A stretch of DNA of 9,150 bases, from the IMG/VR virus record IMGVR_UViG_2541047807_000006; one strand, written 5' to 3'. Positions 2,214-6,211 of this stretch are shown here, in pieces. Source of the stretch: a virus (Duplodnaviria > Heunggongvirae > Uroviricota > Caudoviricetes). The translations under genes were made by a program, and so were the position numbers. Positions within the stretch are counted from its first letter, which is position 1. Each line of letters starts with the position of its first letter. The notes under the pieces are model-generated. The model was not told where the DNA came from. It did no database searches and was given only the letters and a program-made list of their open reading frames with translations.

Positions 2214-2393
2214 TTACTCCTGCTCTTTGGCCTTGCGACGCTGGCGGCGTTTGATCTCGCCTTTTGCGGCAGTAACTAAAAAACCAGCGGTACTTTCGCC
2301 AGGTTCTTTAAGTTGCTCAATATCATCCATTACTTCATGTGGGATTCTGACAGTTGTCATTTGTGATTTTGCGTTCTTTGCACCAGTTGCCAT
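2214..2393 (-). CDS. Ribbon-helix-helix (CopG/Arc-like) DNA-binding protein, about 59 aa
   Basis: Start trimmed to the internal ATG at 2393, which is preceded by AGGAGA with 7-nt spacing. The protein MATGAKNAKSQMTTVRIPHEVMDDIEQL... has an N-terminal beta-strand (TVRIP) followed by two helices, as in RHH folds. The N-terminal 56 codons of the track ORF run through an AT-rich region and look non-coding. An alternative start is the ATG at 2360 (48 aa). Confidence 0.55.
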   Translation of the reverse strand: MATGAKNAKSQMTTVRIPHEVMDDIEQLKEPGESTAGFLVTAAKGEIKRRQRRKAKEQE

Positions 2394-2459
2394 TTCTGGA
2401 TCTCCTAAAAATTGGTGTATGTCAGTATACGCAAAAAAAATGATAAAAAAAGGCTTGAA

Positions 2460-2505
2460 GTGTATTTCACCAGTGAGTAAATTAAAAAGCAAAGGTGAAA
2501 TACAC
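2460..2505. promoter_or_regulatory. Perfect 12-bp inverted repeat GTGTATTTCACC-N22-GGTGAAATACAC in the divergent promoter region; candidate operator
   Basis: Seen directly. It lies in the AT-rich gap between the minus-strand RHH gene and the plus-strand small-gene operon. The operator role is inferred. Confidence 0.45.
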
Positions 2506-2586
2506 CTGAAAGAGCAACGCCCCGCAGTGCTCGCAACACATGCAGGGCGTCTAACCACCAACGATAGAAAGCGTATCGAGGTAGCT

Positions 2587-2790
2587 ATGTTAAATCATAC
2601 CACACACCCGCAAGGGCGGGACTCGCACAACCTGAATAAATACATCTGGCGTTTTATCGCCCTGAGCACGGCACAACCGCGCGTAATCCACATCGAGGCC
2701 ACCAGCGAACAGAAAGCCCGTCAGCAATCCCCGGCTGGCTACGTGATGGTATTCGCCGCCCGTATTCGTCAGGGGGTGTGCCATGCCTGA
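2587..2790 (+). CDS. Small hypothetical protein, 67 aa (possibly Icd-like; tentative)
   Basis: Internal ATG at 2587 preceded by GAGG with 5-nt spacing. Only the last 67 codons of the 303-codon frame look protein-like (YIWRFIALSTAQPRVIHIEATSEQKARQQSPAGYVMVFAARIRQG). The stop overlaps the next start (ATGCCTGA). Resemblance to Icd-like small proteins of P4-like prophages is from memory and unverified. Confidence 0.5.
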   Translation: MLNHTTHPQGRDSHNLNKYIWRFIALSTAQPRVIHIEATSEQKARQQSPAGYVMVFAARIRQGVCHA

Positions 2791-3103
2791 TATGTCAAAT
2801 TACCAGTACCTGATTAATCCGCATTTTAACTGTGAGCATGATATTGCTAAAAAGGTTTATTCCGCTGCTGATGGGGCTACTGACAATATATCAATGGCTG
2901 TTGCGTCAATTGGTAGCCTGATGTGGCATGCGTCAGAAAATGAGGACTATGACGAAAAGGCCATGCGCATTGATATGGGTAATATCGGTTTGTTACTGGC
3001 AATGCTTGGGCAGTTTGATATTTCGTTACGGTGCACCATTGAAAATGCCACAGATGCATTAAATGCCATAAAGAAAGCGAATACTGATTCAAATCGGGGA
3101 TAA
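2783..3103 (+). CDS. Hypothetical protein, 106 aa
   Basis: ORF with a GGGGG Shine-Dalgarno upstream, overlapping the stop of the preceding ORF by 8 nt. No recognisable motif. Confidence 0.55.
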   Translation: MPDMSNYQYLINPHFNCEHDIAKKVYSAADGATDNISMAVASIGSLMWHASENEDYDEKAMRIDMGNIGLLLAMLGQFDISLRCTIENATDALNAIKKANTDSNRG

Positions 3104-3109
3104 ATAATC

Positions 3110-3409
3110 ATGAGAACATATTTATCTGGCTTGACTGCCAGCGGTTATGCACACCCCAAAATTATCCCCGGCGCTATTTATCTGGATAAGAACGGTAACA
3201 GAGTAACGGTAAAAGAACTGATGTTTGACCGTGTGTATTTTATTCGTGATGGCTATTCATTTCATAGTTCGCTGAACGTGGAGATCTTTATTAGCAGATT
3301 CCGGCGGGAAATCCCGACTTCCAGAAATAACCATGTGTCACGTGTGGATGTGGATAAAAAACTGCAGGAACTGAAAAACATGATTGCCGCGTGGAGAGAG
3401 CCGAAATGA
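3110..3409 (+). CDS. Hypothetical protein, 99 aa
   Basis: ORF with GGGGA upstream. Its stop TGA (3407-3409) overlaps the ATG (3406-3408) of the primase gene in an ATGA arrangement, indicating translational coupling. No recognisable motif. Confidence 0.55.
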   Translation: MRTYLSGLTASGYAHPKIIPGAIYLDKNGNRVTVKELMFDRVYFIRDGYSFHSSLNVEIFISRFRREIPTSRNNHVSRVDVDKKLQELKNMIAAWREPK

Positions 3410-5223
3410 AAAAAGCGCCAAATTTAAAACACCAGCCGCGTGACAAAATGACGGAAGTCATCATTTTTGCGGGTAGTGATGCGTGGGCACATGCGAAGCA
3501 GTGGCAGGAACAGGACGGGCGACTGGCTGGCGATAACGTGCCACCTGTCTGGCTTGGAGAGCAACAACTTGCCGAACTGGACAACCTGCAAATCGTACCG
3601 GACGGACGCTATCGCGTGCGTCTCTACCAGGCGGGGTTATTGCGTCCGGGGCTTGTTAATACCATCGGGCAGAAACTGGCAGCGGCAGGTGTCAGGGATG
3701 CTGATTATTACCCTGAAGGAATGCACAGCCAGAAACGGGAGAACTGGCGCGAATATCTGGAACGTGAACGGGCAGAGCTGGCGGAAAAGAAAAAGGTAGT
3801 TGAACTGCCTGTAAAGAAAAAAGAGCGGGTAAAAGACGATAACGCTTCATCACTGGCGCTTAACCAGATGGGAGCAAGTCAACGCGGCGAAGTTCTCCTG
3901 GCACATTATGGCGGTGAACTGGCGATTCATGCTGACTCTGACACTGTTCACCATTACAACGGCGTTGTATGGGAGCCGGTTCAGGATAAAGAGTTACAGC
4001 GTGCTATGGCGCAGATTTTCATTGATGCGGAGATCAGCTATTCGCAGAACGCCATTAAATCGGCGGTCGATACCATGAAGTTAAGTTTGCCTGTAATGGG
4101 GAATACAGCCCGTAACCTGATTGGATTCAGTAACGGGGTATTTGATACCAGAACAGGTAATTTTCGGGAGCATAACAAAAACGACTGGTTGTTAATTGCC
4201 AGTGAATTACCTTTCAGCCCACCAGCAGAGGGGGAAACGCTGGCAACACATGCGCCGAATTTCTGGAAGTGGTTACGCCGTTCGGTGGCTGAGAATGACC
4301 GCAAGGCGGATCGCGTACTGGCTGCCTTATTCATGGTGCTGGCGAACCGGTACGACTGGCAGTTATTCATTGAGGTAACAGGTCCAGGGGGAAGTGGTAA
4401 AAGCGTGATGGCGGAGATTTGCACCATGCTGGCGGGTAAGGCCAACACAGTATCGGCAAGCATGAAGGCGCTGGAAGATGCAAGGGAACGCGCGTTAGTG
4501 GTTGGCTTTTCGCTGATTATCATGCCGGATATGACCCGCTACGCTGGTGATGGGGCAGGGATTAAGGCCATTACAGGCGGTGACAAGGTGGCAATTGACC
4601 CGAAACACAAAGCCCCCTACTCAACGCGTATTCCGGCAGTAGTGCTGGCGGTTAACAATAACGCCATGTCATTCAGTGACCGCAGCGGGGGGATCTCACG
4701 TCGTCGGGTGATATTCAATTTTTCGGAAGTTGTACCGGAGAACGAACGTGATCCAATGCTGGCGGAAAAAATAGAAGGTGAGCTGGCGGTAGTGATTCGC
4801 CATCTGCTTACACGGTTTGCTGACCAGGACGAAGCCAGACGCCTGTTATATGAGCAGCAGAAATCTGAAGAAGCACTGGCGATAAAGCGAGAGGGGGATT
4901 CGCTGGTGGACTTCTGCGGCTATCTCATGGCGTCGGTAATGTGTGATGGCCTGTTAGTGGGTAATGCTGAAATTGTGCCATTCAGCCCACGCAGGTATCT
5001 CTATCATGCCTATCTGGCTTATATGAGGGCACATGGGTTTGGTAAACCTGTAACACTGACGCGCTTCGGTAAAGATATGCCGGGGGCAATGGCGGAATAT
5101 GGCAGGGAGTATATGAAACGGAAAACGAAGCACGGTTTGCGTTCAAACGTGACACTGACGGAGGAATCAGAAGACTGGATGCCATCATGTGTATCGGTCA
5201 CTAATGACGATAGCAAAAATTAA
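3406..5223 (+). CDS. P4 alpha-like replication primase/helicase (D5_N-like region plus SF3-type P-loop NTPase), about 605 aa
   Basis: Walker A GPGGSGKS and a Walker B-like LIIMPDM are seen directly, and the NGVFDTRTGNFREH region resembles D5 N-terminal-type domains. The track start at 3391 is a GTG; the ATG at 3406 has GGAGAG upstream and overlaps the preceding stop, so is preferred. The gene is immediately followed by TGTTCACC iterons. Confidence 0.88.
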   Translation: MKKAPNLKHQPRDKMTEVIIFAGSDAWAHAKQWQEQDGRLAGDNVPPVWLGEQQLAELDNLQIVPDGRYRVRLYQAGLLRPGLVNTIGQKLAAAGVRDADYYPEGMHSQKRENWREYLERERAELAEKKKVVELPVKKKERVKDDNASSLALNQMGASQRGEVLLAHYGGELAIHADSDTVHHYNGVVWEPVQDKELQRAMAQIFIDAEISYSQNAIKSAVDTMKLSLPVMGNTARNLIGFSNGVFDTRTGNFREHNKNDWLLIASELPFSPPAEGETLATHAPNFWKWLRRSVAENDRKADRVLAALFMVLANRYDWQLFIEVTGPGGSGKSVMAEICTMLAGKANTVSASMKALEDARERALVVGFSLIIMPDMTRYAGDGAGIKAITGGDKVAIDPKHKAPYSTRIPAVVLAVNNNAMSFSDRSGGISRRRVIFNFSEVVPENERDPMLAEKIEGELAVVIRHLLTRFADQDEARRLLYEQQKSEEALAIKREGDSLVDFCGYLMASVMCDGLLVGNAEIVPFSPRRYLYHAYLAYMRAHGFGKPVTLTRFGKDMPGAMAEYGREYMKRKTKHGLRSNVTLTEESEDWMPSCVSVTNDDSKN

Positions 5224-5236
5224 ACTTATGGAATAA

Positions 5237-5459
5237 CTGTTCACCACTGTTCACCCTGTCATAAATATCTTTTATATCAGTATATTATAGGGTGAACAGT
5301 TATTTATGAACTGTTCACCAAACTATTCACTGTTCACCTTTTTGGTTGTTTATTGAGCTTCAAGGGTGAACAGTGGTGAACAGTTGGTGAATAGTTTTTG
5401 TGAAACTGTTCACCCCTTAACATTATGAATTAAAAGAGAAAATATCAAAAGGTGAACAG
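5237..5459. repeat. Iteron array of about 10 copies of CTGTTCACC / GGTGAACAG in both orientations; candidate P4-type replication origin (ori/crr-like)
   Basis: Seen directly: tandem copies at 5237-5245 and 5247-5255; inverted pair GGTGAACAGTTA-TTTAT-GAACTGTTCACC (5291-5319); further copies at 5330-5338, 5365-5373, 5375-5383, 5406-5414 and 5451-5459, with a degenerate GGTGAATAG at 5386-5394. The octamer TGTTCACC is, from established knowledge, the type I iteron bound by P4 alpha protein. Confidence 0.75.
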
Positions 5460-5596
5460 GTGAAGGGTTAAAACGCAAAAATTTTAATTTACTGCTGTGA
5501 GATAAAGCCTATGACAGCGAAGCACACCAAAACAACAGGCGGGGAATGATGATCCGTACGGGGATAACATACCGTTTTAAGCAACGAGTAACAGAA

Positions 5597-5618
5597 GCCG
5601 GAGCAATCCGCCTTTTTT
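5597..5618 (+). terminator. Terminator-like hairpin GCCGGA-GCAA-TCCGCC followed by T6; 5' end of repeat copy 1
   Basis: Seen directly: 6-bp stem with one C-C mismatch, a GNRA-type GCAA loop, then TTTTTT. The structure, not the stem sequence, is shared with the copy-2 hairpin. Confidence 0.45.
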
Positions 5619-5692
5619 ATGGGTCCTCCCGGTGGAGTGGTCTGCCACGGGGCGGGAGCGTCGCGGAAAAAGGCTGGTTTTTGCATTTTCAT
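5608..5692 (+). repeat. Direct repeat copy 1 (85-bp conserved core, GC-rich with internal dyad symmetry)
   Basis: Three mismatches over 85 bp against 8143-8227. Contains nested complementary segments CTCCCG...CGGGAG and GTGG...CCAC. Confidence 0.85.
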
Positions 5693-5879
5693 GGCGGCGG
5701 CAGCATGTGTGATAATTTATTGATAATTAAAAGTTATTTCTGTTTTCACCTGTACAATATTTTTTTCTCCCTGTCATTAGACCAGTTTGCAATTAATTGA
5801 AATATATAAATAAATCTGTTTTTCACCTGCCAGGTGGAGTTGCCTGTGTCAAAACGTGTTCAGATGGCGGGATATTTAT

Positions 5880-5902
5880 GCCGGATTTTCTCCGGCTTTT
5901 TT
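5880..5902 (+). terminator. Rho-independent terminator-like hairpin GCCGGA-TTTTC-TCCGGC followed by T6, in the leader upstream of the capsid operon
   Basis: Seen directly: perfect 6-bp stem, 5-nt loop and a downstream TTTTTT tract, about 100 bp upstream of the first ORF of the capsid operon. Confidence 0.55.
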
Positions 5903-6004
5903 GTGTCTGAATCTCATTAATCTATTTTTATGATAGAAATATGTTTATCTACCACTTTTATCGATCAATAATGTGCACAGTTTAGTCAGTAAGAGGAAGT
6001 TACT

Positions 6005-6211
6005 GTGAGTTGTATTAATGACCTGAACACGGGCGATATCAGGGGTGGTTCCGTTCATCTGGATGCGCAGACCGTTATGCGCCTTAAGCAGTACAGGATC
6101 GACCATATAAATCATCATCCTGACAAACCATTACCAGGTGTGGCGCAGATTGTCAGACATGCCGTAAACACCTGGCTTAATCAGAATGGTTTTGCATCGG
6201 TGGGGGAATAA
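6005..6211 (+). CDS. Hypothetical small protein, 68 aa, GTG start, translationally coupled to the protease-capsid gene
   Basis: GTG at 6005 preceded by AAGAGGAAG. The stop TAA overlaps the ATG of the next gene (TAATG at 6209-6213). No recognisable motif. Confidence 0.45.
   Translation: MSCINDLNTGDIRGGSVHLDAQTVMRLKQYRIDHINHHPDKPLPGVAQIVRHAVNTWLNQNGFASVGE

What the first reader, a model, noticed from the sequence alone, without database searches (positions are those of the whole stretch)
5225..5465. Dense TGTTCACC iteron array directly after the primase gene: P4 alpha-type origin
About 10 copies of the 9-mer CTGTTCACC / GGTGAACAG fall within 230 bp, including two tandem copies at 10-bp phasing and two inverted pairs with 5-bp AT-rich spacers. 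The octamer is the P4 type I iteron recognised by alpha protein, so the adjacent primase/helicase is probably the cognate initiator. Note that the RHH operator palindrome (2460-2505) ends in TTCACC, a partial iteron, hinting at cross-talk between the replication protein and the regulatory region.
Basis: partly seen in the sequence, partly recalled or inferred. Interest (0 to 1): 0.6.

Follow-up and report, generated by a model that had tools for sequence, protein, structure and literature searches.

The report
Replication origin of an E. coli PICI satellite
The repeat cluster is real and is very probably the replication origin of a known type of E. coli phage satellite (an EcCI224-like PICI), built from the same protein-binding repeats as the phage P4 origin, so it is an ordinary feature of a known kind.

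Summary
Nine exact CTGTTCACC/GGTGAACAG 9-mers plus three degenerate copies lie in 5237-5467, starting 14 nt after the stop codon of the upstream gene. About 0.3 octamers are expected in the whole window.

The window is a phage-inducible chromosomal island (PICI). Positions 2545-9149 are 97.9% identical to EcCI224, catalogued by Fillol-Salom et al. 2018.

The array is a 237-bp imperfect palindrome of two inverted ~105-bp modules. Each module is collinear with the annotated P4 ori iteron set and with each 120-bp crr repeat.

The upstream protein is 51% identical to P4 alpha over the helicase and C-terminal winged-helix domains. The winged helix matches PDB 1KA8 at E = 1.8e-24.

EcCICFT073, whose rep-ori was shown experimentally to be functional, has the same positional layout but a different iteron (TGTCTACC) and a diverged winged helix. 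Binding domain and iteron therefore co-vary.

Three things differ from P4:
- There is one compact locus, not a split ori plus crr.
- There are no type II repeats.
- The initiator lacks the Zn-ribbon and Toprim primase domains of alpha, so "primase" is unsupported.

The proposed cross-talk with the operator at 2460-2505 is not supported. Verdict: a new member of a known kind, of modest interest.

The parts
3391..5223 (+). rep gene ('pri-rep'). The ORF is 610 aa from GTG 3391. RefSeq relatives start at ATG 3406, giving 605 aa. The protein is an SF3 (D5-type) helicase initiator.
   Evidence: Pfam D5_N, DUF5906 and Pox_D5. Residues 150-600 are 51% identical to P4 alpha residues 320-771. RefSeq annotation of EcCI224.
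3406..3800 (+). N-terminal domain of Rep (about aa 1-130), shared among PICI initiators. It is not the P4 alpha primase domain.
4888..5190 (+). [quoted passage not shown]
   Evidence: phmmer against PDB 1KA8, the P4 alpha origin-binding domain: E = 1.8e-24 over aa 502-598. It is 48% identical to P4 alpha but only 33% identical to the EcCICFT073 Rep, which has a different iteron.
5237..5338 (+). Left origin module. Iterons: 5237-5245(+), 5247-5255(+), 5291-5299(-), 5311-5319(+), a degenerate copy at 5323-5331(+), and 5330-5338(+). This is a P4 ori-type module in reverse orientation.
   Evidence: alignment A1.
5256..5290 (.). AT-rich spacer inside the left module (80% AT), a candidate DNA-unwinding element.
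   Evidence: The homologous spacer is present in P4 ori and crr.
5339..5364 (.). Central spacer (69% AT). The centre of the imperfect palindrome lies at about 5352.
   Evidence: The array aligns to its own reverse complement, 5234-5470, at 69% identity, E = 8e-17.
5365..5467 (+). Right origin module. Iterons: 5365-5373(-), 5375-5383(-), 5386-5394(- with 1 mismatch), 5406-5414(+), 5451-5459(-), and a degenerate copy at 5459-5467(-). It is collinear with P4 ori 9310-9413.
   Evidence: Iteron offsets are 0, 10, 21, 42, 86, 94 against 0, 10, 21, 43, 86, 96 in P4 ori. blastn hits P4 ori 9304-9378.
5415..5450 (.). AT-rich spacer inside the right module (81% AT), a candidate DNA-unwinding element.

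Best explanation
The array at 5237-5467 is the vegetative replication origin of an EcCI224-type phage-inducible chromosomal island.

Proposed mechanism:
1. After induction and excision, the Rep protein encoded just upstream (3391/3406-5223) binds the 9 exact and 3 degenerate ACTGTTCACC iterons through its C-terminal winged-helix domain. That domain is a homologue of the P4 alpha origin-binding domain.
2. The iterons form two inverted ~105-bp modules, each homologous to the P4 ori/crr module. Bound Rep therefore nucleates its SF3 helicase domains on both arms, probably as two oppositely oriented hexamers.
3. DNA melts in the ~80% AT spacers (5256-5290, 5415-5450) or the central spacer.
4. Bidirectional theta replication then amplifies the ~10-11-kb circle before packaging.
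5. Rep has no recognisable catalytic primase domain, so primers probably come from host DnaG.

What is shown: the iterons are present, locally enriched and conserved; they are homologous in sequence and syntax to the P4 origin; the binding domain is homologous; the iteron and the binding domain co-vary in the tested EcCICFT073 origin.

What is inferred: binding itself, the melting site, the double-hexamer geometry and the source of primers.
For: - Enrichment: 9 of the 10 octamers in the window fall within 222 bp, against 0.3 expected.
- Conservation: iterons are conserved while spacers drift, 81% against 44% invariant columns, p = 3e-9.
- Same octamer and syntax as the iterons annotated in P4 ori and crr.
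- The Rep winged helix matches 1KA8 at E = 1.8e-24, and the helicase is 51% identical to alpha.
- EcCICFT073's pri-rep-ori segment supported plasmid maintenance, and deleting rep or ori impaired it (PMC6092414). Its iterons lie at the same offsets from the stop codon: 15, 24, 72, 92, 103, 112, 145, 156, 224, 233, against 14, 24, 69, 88, 100, 107, 143, 153, 164, 183, 229 here. Its iteron is TGTCTACC, and its winged helix is only 33% identical although its N-domain is 69% identical.
- A third Rep lineage (L100) has a CFT073-like helicase (46.6% identical to the window's) but keeps the YLYHAYLAYM motif, and it has TGTTCAC-type iterons.
- In 29 of 29 IMG/VR loci with this N-domain there is exactly one such array abutting the rep 3' end and none elsewhere.
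- A complete circular 10,790-bp record of the element exists in an E. coli assembly. Its only iteron cluster is this array.
- No ORF of 50 aa or more, promoter-like site or terminator-like site lies inside the array.
Against: - No experiment exists for this allele. Binding, origin firing and the start site are all inferred by homology.
- In P4 the region directly downstream of alpha is crr, a cis-required enhancer, not the mapped ori. Position alone does not show that initiation happens here.
- No catalytic primase domain was found in Rep, so one step of the P4 mechanism cannot be transferred.
- The circular 'plasmid' record could be an excised, non-replicating circle captured by the assembler.
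Confidence: 0.85

Rival explanations
1. The array is only a crr-like cis enhancer or Rep-loading site. Replication would start at a different site in the element, as in P4 where ori and crr are separate.
For: The array sits where P4 has crr, just past the 3' end of the initiator gene. P4-type elements in the survey consistently keep a crr there and a distal ori.
Against: The complete 10,790-bp circular copy has no second iteron cluster. None of the 15 PICI-type loci with at least 5 kb of upstream sequence has a distal cluster. The right module reproduces the full six-iteron P4 ori set, not only the crr variant. The positionally equivalent EcCICFT073 segment was sufficient together with rep.
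Confidence: 0.07
2. The array mainly serves regulation: Rep autoregulation or copy-number control by handcuffing, incompatibility, or control of the downstream morphogenesis genes. It would not be the origin.
For: Iteron arrays in plasmids often double as copy-control or incompatibility loci. The array lies between the rep operon and the capsid genes.
Against: The array is downstream of rep, not at its promoter. No sigma-70-like promoter or terminator lies within it. Homology to a known origin and to the tested EcCICFT073 origin is direct. A copy-control role would add to origin function, not replace it.
Confidence: 0.05
3. The array is a packaging (cos/pac) or recombination site, or a chance low-complexity repeat.
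For: PICIs do carry helper cos or pac sites in non-coding DNA. The array is a large imperfect palindrome.
Against: Chance is excluded. The repeat unit is the annotated P4 replication iteron, and it co-varies with the Rep DNA-binding domain, not with packaging genes. The same array occurs in PICIs with different morphogenesis or packaging modules: SSB/ProQ/PerC-type, classical capsid-remodelling type and ClpP-MCP type.
Confidence: 0.03

Closest known systems
Replication origin of Gram-negative PICIs (EcCICFT073 pri-rep-ori; Fillol-Salom et al. 2018, ISME J, PMC6092414). This includes the catalogued elements EcCI224 and EcCIRM13514.
   Same: The array lies immediately 3' of the rep gene and consists of sets of iterons around AT-rich DNA. 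Iteron positions relative to the stop codon match EcCICFT073. The Rep N-terminal domain is shared (69% identity). The element backbone matches too: int, alpA, YlcI-like, icd-like, DUF4222, rep. Window 2545-9149 is 97.9% identical to EcCI224. The EcCIRM13514 Rep protein (WP_000833603.1) is followed by the same TGTTCACC array.
   Different: The iteron is TGTTCACC, not TGTCTACC. The helicase and winged-helix domains are as close to P4 alpha (51% and 48%) as to the EcCICFT073 Rep (47% and 33%). This allele has not been tested experimentally. The int/alpA module differs from EcCI224 and is of the IHE3034 type.
Satellite phage P4 ori and crr, with the alpha protein (GenBank X51522; alpha origin-binding domain PDB 1KA8).
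   Same: The type I iteron is identical. The ~105-120-bp module has the same syntax: three tandem iterons, ~21 bp, one inverted iteron, a ~43-bp AT-rich spacer, then two tandem iterons. The SF3 helicase and the C-terminal winged helix are homologous. There are no DnaA boxes at the origin.
   Different: P4 has one ori module plus two direct crr modules about 4-4.7 kb apart. This element has two inverted modules at one locus. It has no type II repeats. Its initiator lacks the Zn-ribbon and Toprim primase domains of alpha. It has no sid-delta-psu genes; it carries a ClpP-capsid fusion gene instead.
SaPI-type origins of Gram-positive PICIs, and palindromic origins of SF3-helicase viruses (SV40 large T, papillomavirus E1). 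These are comparisons from general knowledge.
   Same: The origin lies 3' of pri-rep, with iterons flanking AT-rich DNA. The initiator sites are arranged in inverted symmetry, which fits head-to-head assembly of two SF3 hexamers.
   Different: There is no sequence homology. The double-hexamer analogy is an inference and was not tested here.

Membership tests
P4 alpha-type origin (ori/crr) | Multiple type I iterons TGTTCACC in both orientations | tested here: met
   There are 9 exact and 3 degenerate copies in 5237-5467. The same octamer is annotated as 'ori type 1 repeat' in X51522.
P4 alpha-type origin (ori/crr) | Iteron order, orientation and spacing of the ~105-120-bp module | tested here: met
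   The right-module offsets are 0, 10, 21, 42, 86, 94 against 0, 10, 21, 43, 86, 96 in P4 ori. The left module is the same in reverse. All five modules align.
P4 alpha-type origin (ori/crr) | Bipartite cis requirement: ori plus a distant crr of two direct 120-bp repeats | tested here: not met
   The complete element has a single locus of two inverted modules and no other cluster. The PICI-type and P4-type organisations separate cleanly in 66 IMG/VR loci.
P4 alpha-type origin (ori/crr) | Type II repeats (CAYTTAAAGN x3) next to the type I set | tested here: not met
   There are no matches near the array, and the window-wide count is at chance level.
P4 alpha-type origin (ori/crr) | Initiator has an alpha-type C-terminal winged-helix origin-binding domain | tested here: met
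   1KA8 matches at E = 1.8e-24 over aa 502-598. Identity to alpha is 48%.
P4 alpha-type origin (ori/crr) | Initiator carries a DnaG-type primase (Zn-ribbon plus Toprim) fused to the helicase | tested here: not met
   [not shown]
P4 alpha-type origin (ori/crr) | Specific binding by the initiator, and origin activity | not testable with these tools
   This needs EMSA or footprinting and a replication assay.
Gram-negative PICI replication origin | Located immediately 3' of the replication initiator gene | tested here: met
   The first iteron starts 14 nt after the stop codon. The published criterion is in PMC6092414.
Gram-negative PICI replication origin | Sets of iterons flanking AT-rich DNA | tested here: met
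   There are two inverted iteron modules. The spacers are 80-81% AT and the centre 69% AT, against 53% for the whole window.
Gram-negative PICI replication origin | Resides in an element with PICI hallmarks (int, alpA, rep, rightward unidirectional genes, ~10-12 kb) | tested here: met
   Pfam and NCBIfam assignments. Window 2545-9149 is 97.9% identical to EcCI224, listed in Table S1 of PMC6092414.
Gram-negative PICI replication origin | Same positional architecture as an experimentally validated PICI origin, with iteron and DNA-binding-domain co-variation | tested here: met
   Comparison with EcCICFT073. The L100 lineage adds a third case.
Gram-negative PICI replication origin | The rep-ori segment drives autonomous replication | not testable with these tools
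   There is only indirect support: a circular 10,790-bp record, pZ1323HEC0475-3, of the same element.

The most novel reading that the evidence does not exclude
This replicon may be a natural hybrid between two satellite families. A PICI-specific N-terminal domain (Toprim-like fold, catalytic Glu lost) would be joined to a P4-alpha-type helicase and winged helix. P4's separate ori and crr would be condensed into one palindromic origin.

If so, P4-like satellites and these PICIs, both common in E. coli, share initiator specificity. They could trans-activate, compete with or exclude each other's replication. The conserved N-domain would be an adaptor that recruits host primase, not a primase itself.
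Probability: 0.3. Interest if true: 0.5.

Novelty: new member of a known kind. Interest (0 to 1): 0.3.

Why it matters
The result assigns a concrete function, and a testable cognate protein, to a conserved non-coding block present in about 11-13% of complete E. coli genomes (594-688 of 5426).

It also shows that a PICI replication module is clearly homologous to that of P4: 51% identity over the helicase and winged helix, the same iteron, and the same origin module. Published surveys treat the satellite replicases as different in sequence or merely analogous (PMC6092414; PMC10085698).

That raises the possibility of replication cross-talk or incompatibility between co-resident satellites. It also offers a natural experiment on how a split ori/crr and a compact palindromic origin do the same job. 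None of this changes the basic picture: the array is an iteron origin of a known kind.

Tried and rejected
- Rfam scan of the whole window at E up to 1: only two chance-level eukaryotic hits, so the array is not an RNA gene.
- Promoter and terminator scan of 5100-6300: nothing inside the array; one terminator-like hairpin at 5880-5896.
- DnaA boxes (TTATNCACA) and P4 type II repeats (CAYTTAAAG): none at or near the array, and window-wide counts are at chance.
- The isolated TGTTCACC at 3945 inside rep is absent from the diverged relative L003, so I treat it as chance.
- Cross-talk with the operator at 2460-2505: rejected, because the operator varies independently of the Rep DNA-binding domain and iteron.
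- The second 'place' per genome in the distant BLAST looked like co-resident P4 elements. It is the array matching its own reverse complement.
- hhalign of the PICI N-domain profile against the P4 alpha Toprim region: no similarity.
- The primary P4 paper (PMC413647) is not held, and a literature search for P4 crr found nothing useful. The statement that alpha binds type I iterons therefore rests on the GenBank annotation, on PMC2777425 for the domain organisation, and on general knowledge (Ziegelin et al. 1993).
- The iteron sequences in Fig. 2a of PMC6092414 are not held as text. I could not confirm whether TGTTCACC is printed there.
- The C-terminus of the L039 VapE-type protein shows no sequence similarity to the window winged helix or to any PDB chain.

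Full report
**1. The observation**

The octamer TGTTCACC occurs 10 times in the 9150-bp window, against 0.30 expected. None of 200 dinucleotide-preserving shuffles reaches 10. Nine copies lie in 5238-5458, and all nine extend to the 9-mer CTGTTCACC/GGTGAACAG. Most extend to the 10-mer ACTGTTCACC.

Three degenerate copies complete the set: 5323-5331, 5386-5394 and 5459-5467. They occupy positions where relatives have good iterons.

The array starts 14 nt after the stop codon of the upstream gene. It is 66% AT, against 53% for the window. It contains no ORF of 50 aa or more, and no promoter-like or terminator-like site.

Elsewhere the octamer is rare:
- one copy in 47 kb and one in 17.2 kb of E. 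coli CFT073 chromosome;
- one copy inside rep, at 3945, which is not conserved in a diverged relative.

They are 11 bp, not 5.

**2. What the window is**

The genes, in order, are:
- a tyrosine integrase, 1-1239;
- AlpA, 1659-1868;
- a YlcI/YnfO-like gene on the minus strand, 2214-2561;
- an Icd-like gene;
- a DUF4222 gene, 3110-3409;
- the 610-aa 'primase family' protein, 3391-5223;
- a ClpP-protease/major-capsid fusion, 6211-8124;
- a DUF1441 protein, 8294-8866.

Positions 2545-9149 are 97.9% identical to E. coli Ecol_224 at 1965-1971.6 kb. That stretch lies inside EcCI224, a PICI listed in Table S1 of Fillol-Salom et al. 2018 (PMC6092414). The integrase/alpA end is of another type, 91.5% identical to a record with an IHE3034-type integrase.

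The 401-bp array region is present in 594 of 5426 complete E. coli genomes at megablast level and in 688 at blastn level. It is followed by different downstream modules in different elements. One hit is a complete circular 10,790-bp 'plasmid', pZ1323HEC0475-3, which is the same element as an episome.

**3. Anatomy of the array**

The iterons form two modules in inverted orientation around a centre near 5352.
- Left module, 5237-5338: + + [43] - [20] + (+) +
- Right module, 5365-5467: - - (-) [21] + [44] - (-)

The array aligns to its own reverse complement over 244 nt at 69% identity, E = 8e-17. Inside each module the long gap is a 35-36-bp spacer of 80-81% AT. The central spacer is 69% AT.

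Spacings are close to whole helical turns: 10, 11, 21 and 43-44 bp.

**4. Homology to P4**

blastn of the region against phage records hits P4 at 9304-9378, annotated 'origin of DNA replication | ori type 1 repeat'. In X51522 the type 1 repeats are this same octamer. They occur six times in ori (9310-9413) and five times in each of the two 120-bp direct repeats of crr (4291-4590).

The right module has iteron offsets 0, 10, 21, 42, 86, 94, against 0, 10, 21, 43, 86, 96 in P4 ori. The left module is the same read backwards. Both window modules, P4 ori and both crr repeats align as one family (alignment A1).

In P4, crr lies just beyond the 3' end of the alpha gene, and ori lies about 4.7 kb away. 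The window's array therefore has the position of crr and the content of two ori-type modules.

**5. The adjacent protein**

Residues 150-600 are 51% identical to P4 alpha residues 320-771, E = 1e-163. Residues 502-598 match PDB 1KA8, the alpha origin-binding winged-helix domain, at E = 1.8e-24. The domain organisation of alpha is described in PMC2777425.

The first ~145 residues have no counterpart in alpha. P4 alpha carries Zn_Ribbon_Prim and Toprim_3 there, while the window protein has no Pfam or NCBIfam hit.

This N-domain is a conserved module. It has invariant TEVIIFAGSDAW and is also found fused to RepA/AAA_25-type helicases and to a third module in other PICIs.

- profile comparison with the P4 Toprim region is negative;
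- the residue after strand 1, where Toprim has its catalytic Glu, is an invariant Ala;
- there is no zinc ribbon.

'Primase' is therefore an annotation label that comes from the D5_N/P4-family helicase part (TIGR01613, below its cutoff). It is not a demonstrated property.

**6. Evidence that protein and array belong together**

- *Phylogenetic footprint.* Across five diverged arrays (window, 67-1, RM13514-type, 2013C, vB_KppS-Ant), 81% of iteron columns are invariant against 44% of the other columns, p = 3e-9.
- *Co-variation with a tested origin.* EcCICFT073's pri-rep-ori segment was shown to drive plasmid maintenance in a rep- and ori-dependent way (PMC6092414). Its repeats lie at the same offsets from the stop codon but read TGTCTACC. 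Its Rep is 69% identical to the window's in the N-domain, 47% in the helicase and only 33% in the winged helix.
- *A third lineage.* L100 has a CFT073-like helicase but keeps the YLYHAYLAYM helix shared by the window Rep and alpha. It has TGTTCAC-type iterons.
- *Survey of loci with the 19-mer CTGTTCACCACTGTTCACC.* All 29 IMG/VR loci whose Rep has the PICI N-domain have exactly one ~221-bp array abutting the rep 3' end and none elsewhere. Of the 37 loci with a P4-type Toprim alpha and a complete 3' end, 28 have a crr-type cluster 72-82 nt after alpha plus a distal ori-type cluster about 4.05-4.75 kb upstream of its 3' end.
- *Species-representative genomes.* They give mostly P4-like elements across Enterobacteriaceae, plus one compact PICI-type array next to a 66%-identical Rep in Oceanisphaera.

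**7. Mechanism**

The best-supported reading is that this is the element's origin. The proposed steps are:
1. Rep binds the iterons through its winged helix.
2. Its SF3 helicase domains oligomerise on the two inverted modules.
3. The AT-rich spacers melt.
4. Bidirectional replication amplifies the excised circle.

The inverted symmetry suggests head-to-head loading of two hexamers, as at other SF3-helicase origins. This is an inference. Priming is the open step. With no recognisable catalytic primase in the element, host DnaG is the likely source, unlike P4. No DnaA boxes are present.

The rivals are a crr-like enhancer only, a regulatory or copy-control array, and a packaging site. They are disfavoured mainly because:
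- the complete element has no second cluster;
- the right module reproduces the whole P4 ori set;
- the array co-varies with the Rep DNA-binding domain and not with the packaging genes.

**8. The operator note**

Positions 2460-2505 hold a perfect 12-bp inverted repeat, GTGTATTTCACC ... GGTGAAATACAC, in the divergent promoter region between the YlcI-like and Icd-like genes. It shares only 6 of 8 bases with the iteron.

This region is hypervariable among PICIs. EcCI224, whose Rep helicase and DNA-binding domains are identical to the window's, has a different operator without TTCACC. I found no support for cross-talk.

**9. Novelty**

The following are all known:
- an origin immediately 3' of rep, made of iteron sets around AT-rich DNA, in Gram-negative PICIs;
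- EcCI224 itself;
- the P4 type I iteron.

EcCIRM13514, one of the four Pri-Rep alleles compared in that paper, carries the same TGTTCACC array.

What I did not find stated in the papers I could search:
- this allele's helicase and winged helix and its origin module are homologous to those of P4;
- the split ori/crr of P4 corresponds to one palindromic locus here;
- the 'Pri' part is not a recognisable primase.

Published texts describe the PICI Pri-Rep proteins as different in sequence from alpha, or the satellite replicases as probable analogues. I rate this a new member of a known kind, of modest interest.

Noticed in passing
window 5599-5692 and 8134-8227: A 94-nt GC-rich direct repeat, 93% identical. 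Each copy starts with a small hairpin plus T-run and ends at the ATG of a minus-strand ORF (5489..5692 and 8033..8227). The two copies precede the two morphogenesis gene blocks. The second copy folds better than shuffles on the + strand (z = -3.4), partly because of an intrinsic terminator right after the capsid gene. There is no Rfam match.
   Followed up: partly
[not shown]
   Followed up: partly
L039 1-2200 (contig CAMHPW010000004.1, MAG labelled uncultured Clostridia): A VapE-type primase-helicase ORF (49-1689) is followed at 1721-2148 by 13 exact GGTGAACA/TGTTCACC octamers. Their first part has P4-ori-like syntax: three tandem copies at 10 bp, an inverted copy 23 bp on, then two tandem copies. 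Its C-terminus shows no detectable sequence similarity to the window or P4 winged helix. Whether this is homology, convergence or mis-binning is unresolved.
   Followed up: partly
window 2244-2545: The YlcI-like repressor/operator segment is an allele distinct from both EcCI224 and the episomal record, with no megablast match. It is flanked by near-identical DNA. The operator inverted repeats differ in every PICI compared, which suggests immunity-type diversification of this module.
   Followed up: partly
NZ_CP148328.1 (L002), whole record: A complete circular 10,790-bp 'plasmid', pZ1323HEC0475-3, in an E. coli assembly is this PICI as an episome. Compared with the window it carries an extra insert annotated as tail and tail-assembly fragments between the capsid gene and DUF1441. 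A related rep+array (73.9% identity) also lies on a 69.9-kb Klebsiella pneumoniae plasmid, NZ_CP030728.1.
   Followed up: no
L050 (IMGVR_UViG_2690316346_000015), arrays at 3882-4102 and 9471-9691: One viral contig carries two identical-type arrays 5589 bp apart. This may be a tandem or concatemeric assembly of a much smaller rep-ori element.
   Followed up: no
window 5512-5550: Downstream of the array, an ATG-initiated reading frame (ATGACAGCGAAGCAC...) stops after 12 codons. In relatives (L004, L005) the homologous start opens a 149-aa gene upstream of ssb. The window-type element has therefore lost or replaced the SSB/ProQ/PerC block found in other PICIs with the same origin.
   Followed up: no
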